Made by a program: the position numbers and the translations under genes
In this document: one piece after another, positions 9,465-41,733 of the stretch
Position numbering within the stretch: the stretch's first letter is position 1
How the letters are laid out: every line of letters starts with the position of its first letter
Notes under the pieces: model-generated
What the model saw: the letters and a program-made list of their open reading frames with translations, nothing else
What the model was told of the DNA's origin: nothing
Database searches by the model: none
Origin: a virus
Taxonomy: Duplodnaviria; Heunggongvirae; Uroviricota; Caudoviricetes
Direction: 5' to 3' (one strand)
Virus record (IMG/VR): IMGVR_UViG_643348545_000011
Length of the DNA: 49,764 bases

Positions 9465-12400
9465 TCACGATGCGGTATCAAAATCGTCTGTATAGGATTT
9501 CAGGTAAAACAGAACCGGGTCATGGATCCGAATTTTACTCTTATCATGAAGTATTGAACCACCCATGTAAAAAAGCACATCTGCTTCATACCTGAATGTA
9601 ATTTCAACCCGCACATCACCCTGTCCGGCAGGAATACTCCATGAGCCTGACGCACTTCCGCCAACATCAGAATATACCGGCTCATATCTGCTGGCGTTTT
9701 TGGAAATCTGGACCTCCCGCTCCCCGGTTTTGACTTTGCCTGACCTGGCATGAACGACAACTTTGTCATTTATCTTCATGATGAATTCACCTCTGGAAAA
9801 TGAATACGCCATAAGCATAAGCTTGCGATCAAACGGCATGTTGTCTTTCAGCAAAATCATTTTCTGAAAAGTCAGCTGGTTCTGAGTCATTACGCCCTGC
9901 CCCATATCAACCGTGTATCCCTTGACGATATCACCAATGATTCGGTCAGCGCTCATCGTTCCATTAATGGTGCAGTCTTCCGCAATCGTCACGTTATTCA
10001 GCGTACCGGAACTGGCACTGATATTCCCGCTGATATCGGCATTACGGGCCGTCAGCCTGCCGTCCGGCGTCAGGGAGAATGCCGGGGGATTGCCGCCGCT
10101 GGTAATGGTGGGGGCGGTAAGAACCTTTATCAGGGCCTCATTGATAAACGTCTGTCCCCCCTGCGTGACCAGTGCGGGTGTGGTATCACCATTCTCCGGA
10201 TTAATGAATGCCACACGGTCCGCTGCCAGCAGTATCTGGCTCTGCATCCCGTCAGGGGTGTTCTCAATACCGGCACCGATACCGGCAATATAGCGACGAC
10301 CATCCTGCATCTGCTGTAGCTTCACCGCCCACATGCTGTTCAGGTCATTATTTGTGTCCGTCTGCACACGCTGGATTTGCTGTATGGTGGCGTTCTGGTC
10401 CTCCAGCGTTTTACTGACCGTCTGCGTGATTTCATTGCGGGTTTCTGTGATGGTGGTCTGCATTTCCGCCATCTCGTCCTTCAGCTGACTGTTGTCAATC
10501 TCTGCCCACAGCGCCTCTGCCAGATGCGTTTTTCCTATCTTTTCCCGGAAAAGTTCCAGATAGCCCGCAGCATCATTGCTCGCCCGTCCACTGGCTTCCA
10601 CAAAAGCAGATTTACCCACCAGGTTGACGCTGCGCACATAAAACCAGAAATCCTTTCCGGGCTTAATGTGCGGACCGGAGACGCTCCACTGGCTGCCGGT
10701 ACCAAGATAACGGGCAGAGGTTTCCACCTGTGCGGCGTCTGCAATTTTTGCCTCCGAAAACCAGAACTCAAACTGCACCGTCGGGTCATACACCGCAAGA
10801 CGCGGTACCGCCGTTATCTGAAAATACCCCGGCGTCAGTTCAACACCGGCAGGCGCTGCCGGTGCGTTAATCCGGAACGTGGTGGTGGCCGGTTCGCCCT
10901 GCTGGCCGTAGCTGTTTATCGCCCTGACCGTCAGGGTGTATTCCCCGGGAGGCAGACCACTGAAACGGTGCTCCGTATCGGCAGTGATGGCGGTGGTCAG
11001 CAGGCGGCTGTTCTCACCGCTTCCACTGGTCAGGCGCAGACTGAAGCGCACGCCCTTCACCACCCGCGGCGTGTCCCATTTCGCCAGCGCCAGATACTGG
11101 CTGTCAGCCGCGCTCACCTCCACCGTCAGGTGCTGTACTGCCGGTGGGATAACGCTGTTCAGGGTGCCTGACTGCGGCTCAAAGCGGGCTCCGTTATCCA
11201 CAATGGCTTCTTTTTCCGGTACGTGCTGCACCGCCGTGATGGCAAAGGTGCCGTCCGTGTTTTCCCGGATGGCCACACAGCGGAACAGGCGACGGCGCAG
11301 TGACGGCAGGGAGAGTCCCCACACCCCGTATGTCTCCACACCATCAGGCAGGGTACTGACCTGTATCCGGTCCGGCGCGGGGTGTGCGGTGATGTCCACA
11401 CTCACCGGCTTACCGCTGCCGTTAATCAGGTTCACCGCCGATGTACCTGTCTCCGGCAGGGTAACCTCACGGTCCAGCGTCAGGGTGCGGGTGGCAGCAT
11501 CAATGGACAGGACACGTCCGCCGGTCAGGGTCCCGGCATAGTCATTATCACAGATTTCAATAATGTCACCGGGTGTGTGCCGCAGCCCCTGAGACCCGAG
11601 TGTGAAATCAACCGTCTGCGTTTCCAGCAGTTCGGTCTTTATCACCCACAGCCCGGCACGGTGGGCCTGACCGCGGCTGGTACAGCCGAACGCGTCCATC
11701 TTCAGCAGGTTGCGTCCGTAGCGCAGTATGGCTTCCGGGTCTTCCACCAGTTCCGTGGAGGTCTGCCAGCCGTTCTGCGGGTCGGTGTAATTCACCTCCA
11801 CCGCCGTGTGCCGGTCCTTCAGGGCACTGAAGCTGTAGCGGAACCCCACGCCGTTATCATCCACCACCACATCGCTGTTGGTGTACGGCCACACCACATC
11901 CGACGGACGGTCCTGAACGAACGTCAGCGTCTGGCCGTTCCATACCGGCATACAGCGCATCGCCGAGCAGAAATCACTGAGCACGTCCCATGCCTTACGC
12001 TGTTGTGCCAGGTACGCATTAAAGGTCATCCGCGGCTCTGTGCCCCCGAAACCATCCGGGACCGTCTGGTCGCAGTACTGCCCGATGGCATACAGCGCCC
12101 ACTTGTCCACATCCGCCGCCCCCAGGCGTTTTCCCATGCCGTAGCGCGGGTGAGTCAGCATGTCCCACAGGCACCAGGCCGGGTTGTTGCTGTATGCCGG
12201 TTTCAGACTGCCGTCCCAGATACCACTGTACGTGCGTTTTACCGGGTCATAGTTTGACGGCACCTGGATGATGCGACCGCGGATATGGTAGTTCACCGTC
12301 ATCTGCTGGCCGCCGAACTGCTCCGCATCCACCTGCAGCCCCACAATGACCGTGTTCGGGTAGCACTGTTTCACATCGATGATTTCGGTGTATGACGACC

Positions 12401-12995
12401 AGAGCGTCTTATTCTGCAGCTGGTCCGTGGTGCTGTCCGCCGTCTCCCTGACCATCCGGATGTTAAAGGGCCGGGGCGGCAGATTATCCAGAATCACCGA
12501 CGCCAGGAACTGCGAGGTGGTCTTGCCGTTAATGGTGACATCCTTTTCCGTCATCCATTTACCACCACGCTCAAGCTGAATCAGCAGGCGGACAGAGGAC
12601 GGATTACGGTCACCCTTTGACGTGGTCTCCACCAGTGACTGCACCCCGAAGGTCACCCGCAGGCGGTCAATGTTCGCTGACGTAATGGTGCGTGTCACCG
12701 GTTTTGCCTTCGTCACTTCCACACCCAGTACAGTTTCAGCTCCGGAGGACTCAAAGCCTTCCGGTGGTGTCTGCTCCTGCTCCCCGGCACGCCAGACGGC
12801 GGTCACACCGTGTATCACGGGATTACCGTCCGTGTCCGTCAGCGGGGTTTTGTTCACCAGAATACTCTGCAGTCCCTTCACCGGACCTTCCACCGGTCCC
12901 TCACCAATGGCATCAATCACACTCATCATCTGCGTGGATTTGAGATTATCCTTCGCCTCACGCGGTGTGTGCCCCTTGCCGCCCCCTTTACCCAC
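9465..12995 (-). CDS. J: Central tail fibre / host specificity protein J
   Basis: Near-colinear similarity to lambda gpJ over about 1000 aa (GKGHTPREAKDNLKSTQ..., fibronectin-like middle); the track ORF starts at a TTG at 13040, but the likely start is the GTG at 12995 preceded by GGAGAGGGGGA; C-terminal about 150 aa diverge from lambda. Confidence 0.95.
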   Translation of the reverse strand: MGKGGGKGHTPREAKDNLKSTQMMSVIDAIGEGPVEGPVKGLQSILVNKTPLTDTDGNPVIHGVTAVWRAGEQEQTPPEGFESSGAETVLGVEVTKAKPVTRTITSANIDRLRVTFGVQSLVETTSKGDRNPSSVRLLIQLERGGKWMTEKDVTINGKTTSQFLASVILDNLPPRPFNIRMVRETADSTTDQLQNKTLWSSYTEIIDVKQCYPNTVIVGLQVDAEQFGGQQMTVNYHIRGRIIQVPSNYDPVKRTYSGIWDGSLKPAYSNNPAWCLWDMLTHPRYGMGKRLGAADVDKWALYAIGQYCDQTVPDGFGGTEPRMTFNAYLAQQRKAWDVLSDFCSAMRCMPVWNGQTLTFVQDRPSDVVWPYTNSDVVVDDNGVGFRYSFSALKDRHTAVEVNYTDPQNGWQTSTELVEDPEAILRYGRNLLKMDAFGCTSRGQAHRAGLWVIKTELLETQTVDFTLGSQGLRHTPGDIIEICDNDYAGTLTGGRVLSIDAATRTLTLDREVTLPETGTSAVNLINGSGKPVSVDITAHPAPDRIQVSTLPDGVETYGVWGLSLPSLRRRLFRCVAIRENTDGTFAITAVQHVPEKEAIVDNGARFEPQSGTLNSVIPPAVQHLTVEVSAADSQYLALAKWDTPRVVKGVRFSLRLTSGSGENSRLLTTAITADTEHRFSGLPPGEYTLTVRAINSYGQQGEPATTTFRINAPAAPAGVELTPGYFQITAVPRLAVYDPTVQFEFWFSEAKIADAAQVETSARYLGTGSQWSVSGPHIKPGKDFWFYVRSVNLVGKSAFVEASGRASNDAAGYLELFREKIGKTHLAEALWAEIDNSQLKDEMAEMQTTITETRNEITQTVSKTLEDQNATIQQIQRVQTDTNNDLNSMWAVKLQQMQDGRRYIAGIGAGIENTPDGMQSQILLAADRVAFINPENGDTTPALVTQGGQTFINEALIKVLTAPTITSGGNPPAFSLTPDGRLTARNADISGNISASSGTLNNVTIAEDCTINGTMSADRIIGDIVKGYTVDMGQGVMTQNQLTFQKMILLKDNMPFDRKLMLMAYSFSRGEFIMKINDKVVVHARSGKVKTGEREVQISKNASRYEPVYSDVGGSASGSWSIPAGQGDVRVEITFRYEADVLFYMGGSILHDKSKIRIHDPVLFYLKSYTDDFDTAS

Positions 12996-13035
12996 TCTGT
13001 CCCCCTCTCCTGTCTGATGTCTGAATCTGTTTATG

Positions 13036-13069
13036 CCCAAAAAACAACAGGCACCCCGGAGGATGCCTG
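13036..13069 (-). terminator. Intrinsic terminator-like hairpin just upstream of J
   Basis: On the - strand CAGGCATCCTCCGGGGTGCCTG followed by TTGTTTTTTGGG. Confidence 0.45.
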
Positions 13070-13141
13070 TATCATGACTGAATAAAAATTCTGAATATCT
13101 TCACATTTTCACAAACTGACTGTGGCGCGTATAATTTCGCT

Positions 13142-13242
13142 GCGTTAGTGTTTTTTTGCCGTGACATAAAAAAACAACTCCTTAACACTAATCTTCATTT
13201 GTCTGAATCTCCCGCAGCTCCGCAACTCTGCGGGATTTTTTT
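13142..13242 (+). ncRNA. Candidate small RNA in the I-J spacer, antisense to the tail operon (hypothetical)
   Basis: Sigma70-like promoter TTCACA-N16-TATAAT (about 13108-13135) followed about 100 nt later by a GC stem CCCGCAG...CTGCGGG plus T8 (13211-13242); no ATG-initiated ORF in between. Confidence 0.2.
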
Positions 13243-13249
13243 ATGCCGT

Positions 13250-13930
13250 TTACCCCTGCCGCCCGATAACCACGACCCTTCCGCCCCCGCCTTCATCACG
13301 GGTGCTGATGTCCTGAGAGATACGTCGTGAACCAACCAGCATTTCCCCGTAAGGCACCGGCATCGGGTTACCCTGGGCAATCATGTTGTCCAGCGAGGAA
13401 AAGTACGTGTTCTGTTTACCGTTATCCGTTGCCCTGTATTCCGGTGTTTTTGCCTTCGGGGCCAGCATCTGTGCCACACCGCCCAGTATCATGCTGGCTC
13501 CAAGTGAAAACAGCATCGTGGTAGCAGAAAAACCACCGGCTGCCAGGGCTGAACCCCATAACGCCATTGATGCCCCGGCCGTGAAGAAAGACCCCACAAT
13601 GGCAGCTGCCCCCAGCACAATCTGTAGTCCGCCCTTTCCGGCACCGGCCAGTCGCGGCACAATATGGATAACCGTTCCCTCACCCAGTGGTTCGTGAAGG
13701 CGGGCATACACCGCCTCCGGTGCCGTATCCTCACCGGCAATACGTATCTGGTACCAGCCTTCGTTCATCTGACGGCGAAAGCCCGGCATCTGCATCGACA
13801 GGGCGCGGATGGCTTCCGCTGCCGTGTTCACATACAGGCTGAGGCGGCGGCCAAATCGTTGTAAATCCCCGTGAAGGCAGATGCGTGCCAGTGGCGGTGA
13901 CGCCAGACAGAATGCGTTCGTCGTTGCCAT
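13250..13930 (-). CDS. I: Tail assembly protein I
   Basis: 226-aa ORF closely resembling lambda gpI (ARICLYGDLQRFGRR..., Gly/Ala-rich hydrophobic centre, NGKQNTYFSSLDNM). Confidence 0.9.
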   Translation of the reverse strand: MATTNAFCLASPPLARICLHGDLQRFGRRLSLYVNTAAEAIRALSMQMPGFRRQMNEGWYQIRIAGEDTAPEAVYARLHEPLGEGTVIHIVPRLAGAGKGGLQIVLGAAAIVGSFFTAGASMALWGSALAAGGFSATTMLFSLGASMILGGVAQMLAPKAKTPEYRATDNGKQNTYFSSLDNMIAQGNPMPVPYGEMLVGSRRISQDISTRDEGGGGRVVVIGRQG

Positions 13931-15280: not shown

Positions 15281-15609
15281 CAGTTCACCACCTGCTTAAA
15301 CTCCGCGCTGAACTCAACGCGCAACATCCCGACCCGCGCAGACCACCCGGCACAGGTCACCTTTATCTGCCGGTATGCATAGGGTGGCTTCCACAAAAAT
15401 GCCTTCCAGCCACCGTGCTCTGCCAGGAACGCTTCCAGATGACGGGCCTCCTCCCGGGTCACGGAAAGCATCACCCGGTATGTTTTCAGGTCAGCATTCA
15501 GCCCTGCCGCCATACGCTGTGAGTACCCGTCACCAAAACGCACTTCACGCACCGATGGCTGCGAGTTCACCTCCATATCCGGTTTCACTTTCCAGCGAAA
15601 GGTTTTCAT
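15280..15609 (-). CDS. M: Minor tail protein M
   Basis: 109-aa ORF resembling lambda gpM; start overlaps the H stop. Confidence 0.9.
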   Translation of the reverse strand: MKTFRWKVKPDMEVNSQPSVREVRFGDGYSQRMAAGLNADLKTYRVMLSVTREEARHLEAFLAEHGGWKAFLWKPPYAYRQIKVTCAGWSARVGMLRVEFSAEFKQVVN

Positions 15610-34037: not shown

Positions 34038-34067
34038 GCCCGCGTCTCCCAGCGCGGGCTTTTTTTG
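34038..34067 (+). terminator. Intrinsic terminator-like hairpin (+ strand orientation)
   Basis: GCCCGCG-tctcccag-CGCGGGC followed by T7. Confidence 0.5.
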
Positions 34068-34411
34068 TCCATAAGAAAGCCCCTCCGGAGAGGGGCTGGA
34101 GAGTGGCGCTATGTGCCATTGCATGGTGCCGGGTGCCTCCCGGTGAGTTCAGTATCAGCACCTGAACCCGCACAGAAAGGATAAGGGTCGGTGACAAAAC
34201 ACCAGTTGCTGATTGCCCCTCCGCACAGGGGGATTCACCATGCCAGTTTCTTTTAACAAACTCCCCGCAAACCAGACAACAGTCAACCGCCTGAATTGTG
34301 AGGTATTTAAAAATTTCAACGGGTAACTGATACCCTGCTAATCGCCTGATGCTTTCTTTTTCAGCAACGGGAAAGCAACAACCACCACACCCACCAGCCG
34401 CCCATTTACCA

Positions 34412-40573: not shown

Positions 40574-41733
40574 TTGCGCCCCCTTACCTCTGAAGGGTTC
40601 AGCGACAAATTTATGAGACTGGCCAGTAGCGCCGCGTCGTTGATGCGGTCATACAGACTTACAGCCAGCGGGGATTCGGCTTTTGCCAACATGGGATAAA
40701 GCTGCTGCAGCCAGACCTGATGAATTGATGAAATGTAGGAATAGAGAACGCTGGCGTTATGTGCAACGTCGCTCAGTACAGAGGGATTTGAAAGCTGTTT
40801 CTCCATCTGGTTAAAGGCATTGATGTATGCCTCTTTGAACTGGGCAGCACGTTTACCCGTGAAACCCATAGCAAGAAACGCAAAGCCGTCGCGGGTTATT
40901 TGATAGCAAGGTAGTTTGCGAGTACCGCCGTTGGGCTGGCGTACCAAAATTGATGTCTCCGCAAAATTGCGGGCACAAAACTCTGGAGAACAATCCAAAA
41001 TGCGGATCTTTTTCAGAACATCGTCATGACGTTTAGAGAAGAAGTCAGCAACAGCCAAAGAAGATGTAACAGCCTGACCATCAACGATGGCAATTTCAGG
41101 TTGAGAGAGGGTTGGGAGAGTAGTCATAGTGACAGCCCCGGTAGTCAGTTTTTTAGAAAACTCACCACATGGGACGCCAATCACAGAGGTGGTGAGACGT
41201 ACAGGGTTGGCGTTACCGGAGACTACCGAACCCGGCCCGACCGAAGTCGGCCCTGTACGCCCCACCATAATTTGGGCGTAGCAATGCTCATGACACGAAA
41301 AAACCGCATGAGCGCGGTTATGCTCAGTAATCAATTTCAGGACGCCAATCCCGGCACCCGCTTTATAAGGTGCAGAGACAGTGTAACGTCCCGAAATGGC
41401 AGAATCAATATGCTGGTGGTCCTTCACACTCAACAAAATCACGCCTGAATTTCCACAAAGGACTAAAGCACTCATGCGGGTAGTCTTTGCGAAGATAGAT
41501 AACGCGCTGTGTTTCTGGCTCCCAACGAATAACATGGACATAAAGCCCTCTTCCGTCACGAAACCAGCGGTTAAGTTCCTGCACAACTCGCCCCCCACAG
41601 TCAGGTAAAGTTCTCTGTGGTTACTTACAGCCAGGTGATTTGGTAATCTGCATTCATGCCGTAACAACAGGTGTTCAGCGACGCTGACCACCAGCTGTTG
41701 CGACAAACGGTTATTTGCCGTTAAACTATTCAT
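40570..41733 (-). CDS. Rha-family phage regulatory protein with unrecognised about 200-aa N-terminal extension
   Basis: 387-aa ORF; residues about 205-330 match the Rha pattern (TSSLAVADFFSKRHDDVLKKIRIL..., ITRDGFAFLAMGFTGKRAAQFKEAYINAF); N-terminal half unrecognised. Confidence 0.65.
   Translation of the reverse strand: MNSLTANNRLSQQLVVSVAEHLLLRHECRLPNHLAVSNHRELYLTVGGELCRNLTAGFVTEEGFMSMLFVGSQKHSALSIFAKTTRMSALVLCGNSGVILLSVKDHQHIDSAISGRYTVSAPYKAGAGIGVLKLITEHNRAHAVFSCHEHCYAQIMVGRTGPTSVGPGSVVSGNANPVRLTTSVIGVPCGEFSKKLTTGAVTMTTLPTLSQPEIAIVDGQAVTSSLAVADFFSKRHDDVLKKIRILDCSPEFCARNFAETSILVRQPNGGTRKLPCYQITRDGFAFLAMGFTGKRAAQFKEAYINAFNQMEKQLSNPSVLSDVAHNASVLYSYISSIHQVWLQQLYPMLAKAESPLAVSLYDRINDAALLASLINLSLNPSEVRGRK

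What the first reader, a model, noticed from the sequence alone, without database searches (positions are those of the whole stretch)
12996..13249. About 250-bp spacer between tail genes I and J carrying a sigma70-like promoter and terminators on both strands: candidate antisense small RNA
In lambda, I and J are adjacent. Here they are separated by a spacer containing (i) on the - strand a terminator-like hairpin plus U-run just upstream of J, and (ii) on the + strand a near-consensus promoter (TTCACA-N16-TATAAT) followed about 100 nt later by a GC stem plus T8, with no ORF in between. This is the signature of an inserted small non-coding transcription unit running against the late operon.
Basis: seen in the sequence. 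Interest (0 to 1): 0.5.

Follow-up and report, generated by a model that had tools for sequence, protein, structure and literature searches.

The report
Known prophage small RNA PasB

Summary
The spacer (12996-13249) has a TTCACA-N16-TATAAT promoter on the + strand. It is the only 11/12 sigma-70 match in the 49.8-kb window. About 100 nt downstream lie an 8-bp GC-rich hairpin and T7. No conserved ORF lies between them.

The unit is a variant of PasB, an 83-nt Hfq-dependent sRNA of EPEC E2348/69 (Northern, RIL-seq). PasB sits in the same I-J spacer on the same strand. The spacers are 87% identical and the RNA bodies 84%.

Three ~85-nt Hfq-bound sRNAs of EHEC Sakai (EcOnc22/23/24) map to the same junction in prophages Sp15, Sp14 and Sp11. 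The papers I read do not make this link.

Across about 220 loci, an upstream block, the -10 position and the terminator stem are conserved. The RNA body varies.

The - strand hairpin upstream of J is probably not part of the insert, because lambda has an analogous one in its own 60-bp I-J gap.

Most likely function: a moron-like, trans-acting, Hfq-dependent base-pairing sRNA made in lysogens. A cis-antisense effect on the late transcript is possible but untested.

Side finding: some STEC prophages carry up to four tandem PasB-like units at this junction.

Verdict: real, correctly read, already known.

The parts
13080..13108 (+). Conserved block upstream of the core promoter: GAATAAAAATTCTGAATATCTTCACATTT. 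It contains TCTGA-N6-TCACA at 13090-13105.
   Evidence: Invariant in six spacers found by BLAST. Also invariant in variants selected only by a 3' pattern, including units in other sequence contexts, and in all four units of the L129 array. It matches the CRP core TGTGA-N6-TCACA at 9/10 positions, centred about -44.5 from the predicted start. Any role as a regulator site is inference.
13108..13135 (+). Sigma-70 promoter: -35 TTCACA (13108-13113), 16-nt spacer, -10 TATAAT (13130-13135).
   Evidence: 11/12 to consensus. Unique at that stringency in the window. The -10 stays at the same position in all classes (TATAAT, AATAAT or TATCAT), while the -35 is good only in the window and E2348/69 classes.
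13142..13242 (+). Predicted primary PasB-family transcript, about 101 nt. The stretch 13157-13242 (86 nt) corresponds to the published 83-nt PasB of E2348/69.
   Evidence: The start is inferred from the -10 position. The published 5' and 3' ends come from RNA coverage and a Northern blot and were mapped onto the window by alignment. Identity to PasB is 84%.
13173..13198 (+). Unstructured A/C/U-rich body with the conserved motifs AACAACUCCUUAAC (CUCC at 13178-13181, complementary to Shine-Dalgarno GGAG) and UAAUCUUCAU (13189-13198). Candidate seed and Hfq-binding region.
   Evidence: These motifs are kept across otherwise divergent classes. No consensus secondary structure exists outside the terminator. 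The seed assignment is inference.
13210..13242 (+). Rho-independent terminator: stem UCCCGCAG / CUGCGGGA, 10-nt loop, U7.
   Evidence: The stem CCCGCAG/CUGCGGG is invariant and the loop varies in 50 unique variants. The PasB Northern probe targets this hairpin.
13037..13070 (-). Sense-strand (late operon) hairpin ACAGGCAUCC-UCCG-GGGUGCCUGU followed by UGUUUUUUGG, 50 nt upstream of the J start codon.
   Evidence: Folds at -20.9 kcal/mol, z = -3.5. The stem is kept with a different loop in E2348/69. The window's single stem change gives a G-U pair only on the - strand. Lambda has an analogous hairpin in its 60-bp gap.
12993..13012 (-). Ribosome-binding site of J (CAGGAGAGGGGGA, 13012-13000) and its GTG start codon (12995-12993).
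   Evidence: Read from the sequence. The N-terminus MGKGGGKGHTPRE matches lambda J. Pfam gpJ domains.
13250..13252 (-). Stop codon of tail assembly gene I, 8 nt from the end of the PasB U-tract.
13018..13028 (+). First copy of an 11-nt direct repeat TGTCTGAATCT; the second copy is at 13200-13210 inside the sRNA. The sRNA is therefore complementary to the J leader at -33 to -23.
   Evidence: Specific to the window-type variant and absent from the E2348/69 and Sakai classes.

Best explanation
The I-proximal 170-180 bp of the spacer is a self-contained sRNA gene of the PasB family, inserted between tail genes I and J on the strand opposite the late operon.

In a lysogen the late operon is silent. 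Host RNA polymerase starts at the sigma-70 promoter (-10 at 13130-13135) and stops at the intrinsic terminator (13210-13242). The product is an 86-101-nt RNA.

The RNA consists of a largely unstructured A/C/U-rich body, a U-rich stretch, a terminator hairpin and a U7 tail. This is the usual layout of an Hfq-binding sRNA.

Bound to Hfq, it most likely pairs in trans with 5'UTRs or coding regions of mostly host-chromosome mRNAs. The pairing region is probably the conserved CUCC-containing, anti-Shine-Dalgarno-like stretch, and the effect would be on translation or stability.

Basis of each step:
- Shown here: the anatomy, homology, synteny and conservation pattern.
- Shown by others for the E2348/69 and Sakai orthologues: transcription, size, Hfq dependence and multiple RNA partners.
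- Inferred: the seed, the direction of regulation and the physiological role.

The - strand hairpin next to J is an older feature of the I-J junction. It belongs to the late transcript, not to the sRNA unit.
For: Identity with PasB.
- PasB is listed at NC_011601.1 1466343-1466261 (-), 83 nt, in prophage PP6, with the probe sequence and an antisense orientation between two tail genes.
- In that genome gpI ends at 1466255 and gpJ starts at 1466496, so PasB lies in the I-J spacer.
- The window and E2348/69 spacers align at 87% identity, with promoter and terminator in register. The RNA bodies are 84% identical.

Experimental support for PasB.
- Northern blot and Hfq-dependent stability.
- Delta-hfq versus wild type: log2 fold change -6.8 and -2.4.
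- 37 RIL-seq partners: 30 CDS or 5'UTR, 0 sRNA. It is the second RNA in at least 99% of chimeras. Accessory-genome partners make up 0.5-2% of fragments.

EHEC counterpart.
- EcOnc22/23/24 are ~85 nt on Northern and destabilised without Hfq.
- They fall in the I-J spacers of Sp15, Sp14 and Sp11.
- After a +137 coordinate correction, calibrated on AsxR, AgvB1 and EcOnc06, the Hfq peak lands on the PasB-like RNA body.

Statistics and conservation.
- The promoter is unique in the window at 11/12.
- The spacer matches 1768 of 5426 complete E. coli genomes and 146 phage records.
- Conservation fits an RNA gene: the terminator stem is invariant, the loop and body vary, and the -10 position is kept.
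- No ORF is conserved.
- Lambda lacks the unit.
Against: - No expression data exist for this particular copy or variant.
- The published PasB 5' end lies about 15 nt downstream of the start predicted from the -10. That end was estimated from read coverage. The true start, or any processing, is unresolved.
- The authors reported no common target motif for PasB, and its function is stated to be unknown.
- The CUCC seed is my inference.
- The window variant differs from PasB in the presumed seed flank and in the terminator loop, so its targets may differ.
Confidence: 0.85

Rival explanations
1. The RNA acts mainly as a cis-antisense regulator. It pairs perfectly with the I-J spacer of the late polycistronic transcript. 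This could trigger RNase III cleavage, or convergent transcription could interfere with the late operon. Either way it would set the level or timing of J (host-range protein) relative to I.
For: The RNA is fully complementary to about 100 nt of the late transcript, by position. The unit holds this junction in thousands of prophages. In the window-type variant, an additional 11-nt stretch of the RNA (13200-13210) is complementary to the J leader at -33 to -23, just upstream of the Shine-Dalgarno sequence.
Against: The transcript overlaps no coding sequence or ribosome-binding site. The orthologue is made in lysogens, where the late operon is silent, and its RIL-seq chimeras are 98-99.5% with core-genome RNAs. 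The 11-nt match to the J leader is absent from the E2348/69 and Sakai classes. PasB-like units also occur in other contexts and in tandem arrays. That fits a portable trans-acting cassette better than a junction-specific regulator.
Confidence: 0.12
2. The spacer encodes a small protein on the late-operon strand (MKI(S/N)VKELF...). It would be translated from the late transcript, and the conserved AAGGAG on that strand would be its Shine-Dalgarno sequence or part of its coding sequence.
For: Some phage records annotate a hypothetical protein here: PhiR12_1 (32 aa) and 1720a-02 (50 aa). The first nine codons are similar in many variants.
Against: ORF length ranges from 10 to 39 aa. The start codon is missing in 8 of 50 unique variants. 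Homopolymer length changes shift the frame between close relatives. RefSeq annotates nothing here. The promoter, U-tract terminator and detected RNA are all on the other strand.
Confidence: 0.03
3. The RNA is an anti-sRNA (sponge) like AgvB or AsxR, and sequesters a core sRNA such as GcvB through its CA-rich stretch.
For: It is prophage-encoded and Hfq-bound, and the family has a conserved 3' scaffold with a variable 5' part. That pattern is the same as for AgvB and AsxR. The body contains ACAAC-type sequences.
Against: Rfam AgvB and AsxR models give no hit. RIL-seq lists 0 sRNA partners for PasB. The GcvB R1 target consensus CACAACA is absent. Size and location differ.
Confidence: 0.04

Closest known systems
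PasB (pathogenicity-associated sRNA B) of EPEC O127:H6 E2348/69, prophage PP6 (Pearl Mizrahi et al. 2021, PMC8550237; distribution study by Zhu, Shabalina and Storz 2026, bioRxiv 10.64898/2026.05.13.724894)
   Same: Same gpI-gpJ spacer and same strand relative to the tail operon. The promoter, terminator stem and U7 are in register. The spacers are 87% identical and the RNAs 84%.
   Different: The 5' part differs (GCCGUGACAUAAAAAAAC versus GCCCGAGUAACAAAAAC). There are two changes next to the CUCC motif, a GAAUC insertion before the terminator and a different terminator loop. The published Northern probe would mismatch at 3 positions plus a gap. This copy has no expression data.
EcOnc22 / EcOnc23 / EcOnc24 of EHEC O157:H7 Sakai, prophages Sp15 (Stx1), Sp14 and Sp11 (Tree et al. 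2014, PMC4104026, Table S2)
   Same: They lie in the same I-J spacer on the strand opposite the tail genes. They are ~85 nt on Northern and destabilised without Hfq. They share the upstream block, the -10 position, the AAYAACUCC and UUAAUCUUCAU motifs and the terminator stem.
   Different: The region between the -35 and -10, and the 5' body, are strongly diverged. The -35 is poor. The spacers are only 81-83% identical overall. Their targets are listed as unknown. The papers I read do not link them to PasB.
AgvB and AsxR anti-sRNAs (Rfam RF02702, RF02703)
   Same: They are prophage-encoded, Hfq-bound short RNAs made in lysogens, and the family has a conserved 3' scaffold with variable 5' ends.
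   Different: They lie downstream of PR' at the moron site, not in the tail operon. They are 51-60 nt long and act by sequestering core sRNAs. The covariance models do not match here. PasB has no sRNA partners in RIL-seq.
Phage morons such as lambda lom and bor (concept of Juhala et al. 2000, as cited in PMC4104026; details from my own knowledge)
   Same: An autonomous promoter-gene-terminator unit inserted between two late genes that lie closer together in a related phage, and expressed from the prophage.
   Different: The product is a non-coding RNA, and the unit points against the late operon.
Lambda OOP RNA (from my own knowledge)
   Same: A short phage RNA with its own promoter and intrinsic terminator, transcribed against a phage operon.
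   Different: OOP overlaps the 3' end of the cII coding sequence and acts in cis through RNase III. The RNA here overlaps no coding sequence, and its orthologue has many trans partners.

Membership tests
PasB sRNA family | The gene lies in the gpI-gpJ spacer of a lambdoid prophage, on the strand opposite the tail operon. | tested here: met
   Window: I at 13250-13930 (-), J at 9465-12995 (-), unit on +. E2348/69: PasB at 1466343-1466261, between gpI (ends 1466255) and gpJ (starts 1466496).
PasB sRNA family | Sequence homology to the 83-nt PasB of E2348/69. | tested here: met
   74 identical positions in 88 aligned columns (84%) for the RNA. 87% over the spacer.
PasB sRNA family | Own sigma-70-type promoter and a Rho-independent terminator with a long U-tract (longest U tract 7 in the authors' table). 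| tested here: met
   Promoter 11/12. 8-bp stem plus U7. U tract of 7 listed for PasB.
PasB sRNA family | An RNA of about 83 nt is detected, and its level depends on Hfq. | not testable with these tools
   Shown only for E2348/69 and for Sakai EcOnc22. No data exist for this copy.
EcOnc22/23/24 (EHEC Sakai) | The Hfq-crosslinked peak lies on the antisense strand of the I-J spacer. | tested here: met
   This test concerns the Sakai loci. The spacers are 2902691-2902930, 2676622-2676861 and 2166672-2166911. The paper's coordinates are about 137 lower than in NC_002695.2 (AsxR +135 to +139; AgvB1 +137 to +146; EcOnc06 compatible). The corrected peak falls on the PasB-like body. The window unit aligns to these loci, but its body is diverged.
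AgvB/AsxR anti-sRNAs | Match to Rfam models RF02702 or RF02703, and location at the PR' moron site. | tested here: not met
   No hit in 12800-13450 at E up to 1. The same models find AgvB and AsxR in Sakai control loci. The location is the tail operon.
AgvB/AsxR anti-sRNAs | Pairs with, and antagonises, a core sRNA. | not testable with these tools
   Published RIL-seq lists 0 sRNA partners for PasB, which argues against it for the orthologue.
Cis-antisense phage RNAs (lambda OOP type) | The transcript overlaps the coding sequence or ribosome-binding site of the gene it controls on the other strand. | tested here: not met
   The predicted transcript (13142-13242) ends 8 nt before the I stop codon and starts 130 nt from the J ribosome-binding site. 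It is complementary only to the untranslated spacer of the polycistronic RNA.
Phage moron | An autonomous promoter-plus-terminator unit that is present between two genes but absent from the same junction in a related phage. | tested here: met
   The lambda I-J gap is 60 bp and lacks the unit. The unit has sharp borders and occurs next to at least two different J-proximal sequences and in arrays.
CRP-activated (class II) promoter | A TGTGA-N6-TCACA site centred at -41.5. | tested here: inconclusive
   The core matches at 9/10 (TCTGA-ATATCT-TCACA, 13090-13105) and both half-sites are invariant in all variants. The centre is about -44.5 from the predicted start. The left half always has C where CRP prefers G. 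No binding data exist.

The most novel reading that the evidence does not exclude
The I-J junction unit may be a portable sRNA cassette. It would have a fixed, regulator-controlled promoter block and a fixed terminator scaffold, with a fast-evolving pairing region. On this reading PasB (EPEC) and EcOnc22-24 (EHEC) are variants of the same cassette, and some STEC prophages have amplified it into tandem arrays of two to four diverged paralogues. Such a cassette would let lambdoid prophages diversify host-directed sRNA regulation. In variants like the one in this window, which has an extra 11-nt match to the J leader, it might also tune expression of the host-range protein J.
Probability: 0.2. 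Interest if true: 0.5.

Novelty: already known. Interest (0 to 1): 0.22.

Why it matters
For this window the finding matters little. It re-identifies a published prophage sRNA gene, although neither RefSeq annotation nor Rfam 15 records it.

The family remains of some interest for four reasons:
- Its function is still unknown.
- It is present in about a third of complete E. coli genomes.
- It sits next to the host-range gene J.
- EPEC and EHEC work named it independently without connecting the names.

Linking PasB to EcOnc22-24, and recognising the tandem arrays and the invariant promoter block, would help anyone designing experiments on what these RNAs do.

Tried and rejected
- Rfam. With permissive E-values on the spacer it gave only a chance snoRNA hit inside J. 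The E2348/69 PasB locus also gave no Rfam hit. Rfam 15 therefore has no PasB model.
- AgvB. My first recalled lead was that the spacer might hold AgvB. The paper places AgvB at the PR' moron site and the model does not match, so I rejected it.
- One-genome-per-species scan. A 29-nt promoter-block pattern found only two contigs of about 500 bp, in Asaia and Parendozoicomonas assemblies. These are probably E. coli contamination. The pattern was strict, so this does not exclude diverged relatives in other genera.
- Secondary structure. RNAalifold over 50 variants found only the terminator. The 5' stem seen in single-sequence folds is not conserved.
- Small ORF on the - strand. Rejected.
- Pairing of the sRNA body with the J translation-initiation region. 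Above shuffled controls only for the window variant, because of the 11-nt repeat, and not for E2348/69 or Sakai. The duplexfold energies include long interior loops and should not be taken at face value.
- PasB RIL-seq targets. I could not list them. The table is sorted by the first RNA and is too long to read within the look-up cap. Only summary counts are cited.
- Lambda hairpin. The terminator scan did not flag it. The hairpin is read from the sequence and supported by folding.

Full report
**What is in the sequence.** The window carries a lambda-type tail module on the - strand. ORF 13250-13930 matches Pfam Lambda_tail_I. ORF 9465-12995 carries the full set of gpJ domains. J starts with GTG at 12995, preceded by CAGGAGAGGGGGA. 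Its N-terminus MGKGGGKGHTPRE aligns with lambda J. The I stop codon is at 13250-13252.

On the + strand the scan finds TTCACA-16 nt-TATAAT at 13108-13135, an 11/12 match. My own scan shows this is the only match of at least 11/12 on either strand of the 49.8-kb window. About 0.5% of random 254-bp sequences of the same composition contain one. Roughly 75 nt further on lies an 8-bp stem (13210-13217 / 13228-13235) with a 10-nt loop, followed by T7 (13236-13242), not T8. On the - strand a 10-pair hairpin (13070-13047) is followed by UGUUUUUUGG. It folds at -20.9 kcal/mol, z = -3.5.

**What it is.** Rfam gave nothing in the spacer. BLAST showed the spacer is widespread: 146 phage records, many of them Stx-converting phages, and 1768 of 5426 complete E. 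coli genomes. RefSeq annotates nothing in it.

The literature search led to PasB. This is one of five prophage sRNAs found by RIL-seq in EPEC E2348/69 and confirmed by Northern blot. Table S6 of that paper gives PasB as NC_011601.1 1466343-1466261 (- strand), 83 nt, in prophage PP6, lying between two genes of the opposite orientation, and gives the probe sequence. In that genome the tail assembly protein gene ends at 1466255 and gpJ starts at 1466496. PasB therefore occupies the I-J spacer, antisense to the tail operon.

The E2348/69 spacer aligns with the window spacer at 87% identity. The promoter, the U-run after the predicted start, the body and the terminator are all in register. The RNA bodies are 84% identical. 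The probe target is the terminator hairpin, and in the window it differs only in the loop. By the published ends the window equivalent is 13157-13242 (86 nt). From the -10 position the primary transcript would start near 13142 (about 101 nt). The published 5' end was estimated from read coverage, so this 15-nt difference is unresolved.

**A second, independent detection.** Table S2 of the Hfq-CRAC study of EHEC Sakai lists EcOnc22 (Sp15, the Stx1 phage), EcOnc23 (Sp14) and EcOnc24 (Sp11) as homologues of one another. They are on the + strand. EcOnc22 is about 85 nt on Northern and destabilised without Hfq. In the current Sakai record all three coordinates fall inside I-J spacers whose tail genes are on the - strand.

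The paper used an older version of the genome, so I calibrated the offset. AsxR gives +135 to +139. AgvB1 gives +137 to +146. EcOnc06 falls on its STnc100-like RNA at 3.49 Mb only if a similar offset is applied. With +137 the EcOnc22 peak lands at 2902851-2902911. That is the body of the PasB-like RNA predicted at 2902836-2902926.

The PasB discovery paper notes EHEC homologues for PasA and PasD but none for PasB. [quoted passage not shown] A 2021 review lists EcOnc22-24 with target unknown. As far as I could read, the equivalence of the two names has not been stated.

**Family anatomy.** I collected about 220 loci from IMG/VR with three different patterns, plus six spacers found by BLAST. There are at least five sequence classes: E2348/69, window/PhiR12, Sakai, BP-4795 and 1720a-02. 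Recombinants between classes also occur.

The only consensus secondary structure is the terminator. Its stem CCCGCAG/CUGCGGG never varies, while the loop does. The body is A/U/C-rich, with two conserved motifs: AAYAACUCC and UUAAUCUUCAU. CUCC is complementary to the Shine-Dalgarno core GGAG, so I propose it as the seed. This is inference; the authors found no common target motif for PasB.

The most conserved part of the unit is a block just upstream of the core promoter: AAAAnTTCTGA-N6-TCACATTT (13080-13108 in the window). It is invariant in sequences chosen only by their 3' end, in units with unrelated upstream flanks, and in diverged paralogues. The -35 proper is good only in the window and E2348/69 classes, whereas the -10 keeps its position in all classes. 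This suggests an activator-dependent promoter.

The block matches the CRP core at 9/10 positions. PasB is more abundant in LB-type non-activating conditions than in activating medium. I recall, but did not verify in the paper, that the activating medium contains glucose; if so, this would fit CRP control. Against CRP, the centre lies near -44.5 rather than -41.5, and the left half-site always has C where CRP prefers G. I leave the identity of any regulator open.

**What is not part of the unit.** Lambda's I-J gap is 60 bp. It contains its own sense-strand hairpin AAACCGCC-UGCG-GGCGGUUU followed by a U-rich tract, just upstream of the J ribosome-binding site. It folds at -21 kcal/mol, z = -2.8. 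The tool's terminator scan did not flag it. The window hairpin occupies the same position relative to J. Its stem is conserved with a different loop in E2348/69. The one stem substitution in the window keeps pairing only on the - strand, as a G-U pair. The - strand element is therefore a feature of the late transcript. It could be a terminator that Q-modified polymerase reads through, or an mRNA-stabilising or processing hairpin. It probably predates the sRNA insertion. Relative to lambda, the inserted DNA is roughly 13071-13249.

**How it most likely works.** For the E2348/69 orthologue the published numbers are these. RNA level falls by log2 6.8 and 2.4 in delta-hfq. It has 37 distinct partners: 30 CDS or 5'UTR, 4 3'UTR or intergenic, 0 sRNA. 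It is the second RNA in at least 99% of chimeras. Only 0.5-2% of chimeric fragments involve an accessory-genome partner.

This is the profile of a classical Hfq-dependent trans-acting sRNA directed at host genes and made from the prophage while the late operon is off. In other words it is a non-coding moron. The window copy keeps every sequence feature needed for that. Its physiological role is unknown, as the literature says for the family.

A cis effect on the late transcript is not excluded, because the RNA is perfectly complementary to the I-J spacer. In the window-type variant an 11-nt direct repeat (13018-13028 and 13200-13210) also makes the RNA complementary to the J leader at -33 to -23. 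That match is missing from the other classes, so it cannot be the family's function.

A small ORF on the - strand (MKIxVKELF...) is annotated in two phage records. It varies from 10 to 39 aa, lacks a start codon in 8 of 50 variants, and is frameshifted between close relatives.

**Beyond the window.** In locus L129 the I-J spacer is 920 bp and holds four PasB-like units in the same orientation. Each has the promoter block, a -10 and a terminator, and their bodies are strongly diverged. Nine IMG/VR loci have four units and about eight have two. Of the complete E. coli genomes, 67 of 5426 carry the four-unit array at 80% coverage or more, several from named STEC strains or serotypes, with nothing annotated there. 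No record in the phage collection has the whole array. About 40% of the class-A loci have a different, longer sequence between the PasB promoter and J.

**Verdict.** The element is a variant of an sRNA family that is already published and experimentally validated. It is ordinary for a lambdoid E. coli prophage, so I score interest low. The residual interest lies in the unknown function, the unstated PasB-EcOnc22-24 link, the invariant promoter block and the tandem arrays.

Noticed in passing
L129:7517-8436 (IMG/VR); also L101, L116, L119, L120, L152, L154, L158, L159: In these prophages the I-J spacer is about 920 bp and holds four tandem PasB-like units in the same orientation. Each has the conserved promoter block, a -10 and a terminator, but the bodies are diverged. 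About eight other loci have two units. 67 of 5426 complete E. coli genomes, several from named STEC strains or serotypes, carry the four-unit array, with nothing annotated there.
   Followed up: partly
NC_002695.2 2902691-2902930 (L176), 2676622-2676861 (L177), 2166672-2166911 (L178): The EHEC Sakai sRNAs EcOnc22, EcOnc23 and EcOnc24 (Tree et al. 2014) lie in I-J spacers and are the Sakai-type counterparts of PasB. The papers I read do not state this link. The coordinates in that paper are about 137 bp lower than in the current RefSeq record.
   Followed up: yes
window 13080-13108: The block GAATAAAAATTCTGAATATCTTCACATTT upstream of the -35 is the most conserved part of the whole unit across all classes and array paralogues. 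It matches the CRP core at 9/10 positions (TCTGA-N6-TCACA) but is centred near -44.5. It may be a regulator binding site.
   Followed up: partly
window 13018-13028 and 13200-13210: There is a perfect 11-nt direct repeat TGTCTGAATCT. One copy is in the J leader and the other just before the sRNA terminator. The window-type RNA can therefore pair with the J mRNA at -33 to -23. The repeat is specific to this variant.
   Followed up: partly
L180:866-895 (lambda 15465-15494): Lambda's own 60-bp I-J gap holds a stable sense-strand hairpin followed by a U-rich tract, just upstream of the J ribosome-binding site. It is analogous in position to the window hairpin at 13047-13070. The terminator scan did not flag it.
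   Followed up: partly
L009, L007, L029 and about 40% of class-A IMG/VR loci: These loci have an alternative junction architecture. Between the PasB promoter block and J there is a different insert of about 180 bp, with its own hairpin (AAACCCCGGTATCAGCAGATACCGGGGTTTT) in place of the window-type hairpin. L029 lacks that hairpin segment. Rfam finds nothing there.
   Followed up: no
window 34067-34272 (-), 41185-41272 (-), 41297-41373 (-): Rfam gathering-level hits elsewhere in the window: STnc100 (related to PasD according to the 2026 preprint), C4 antisense RNA and IsrK.
   Followed up: no
L086 (Asaia platycodi NZ_BAKW01000035.1, 546 bp) and L087 (Parendozoicomonas haliclonae NZ_FWPT01000051.1, 460 bp): Two tiny contigs in assemblies of unrelated bacteria carry the PasB promoter block, and L087 carries a Sakai-type unit. 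This is most likely E. coli prophage contamination of those assemblies.
   Followed up: no
window 13149-13157 / 13168-13176 and 13165-13174 / 13236-13245: The U7 run just after the predicted start and the 3' U7 tail are both complementary to the internal A7 run. Alternative weak A-U helices could therefore form within the RNA.
   Followed up: no
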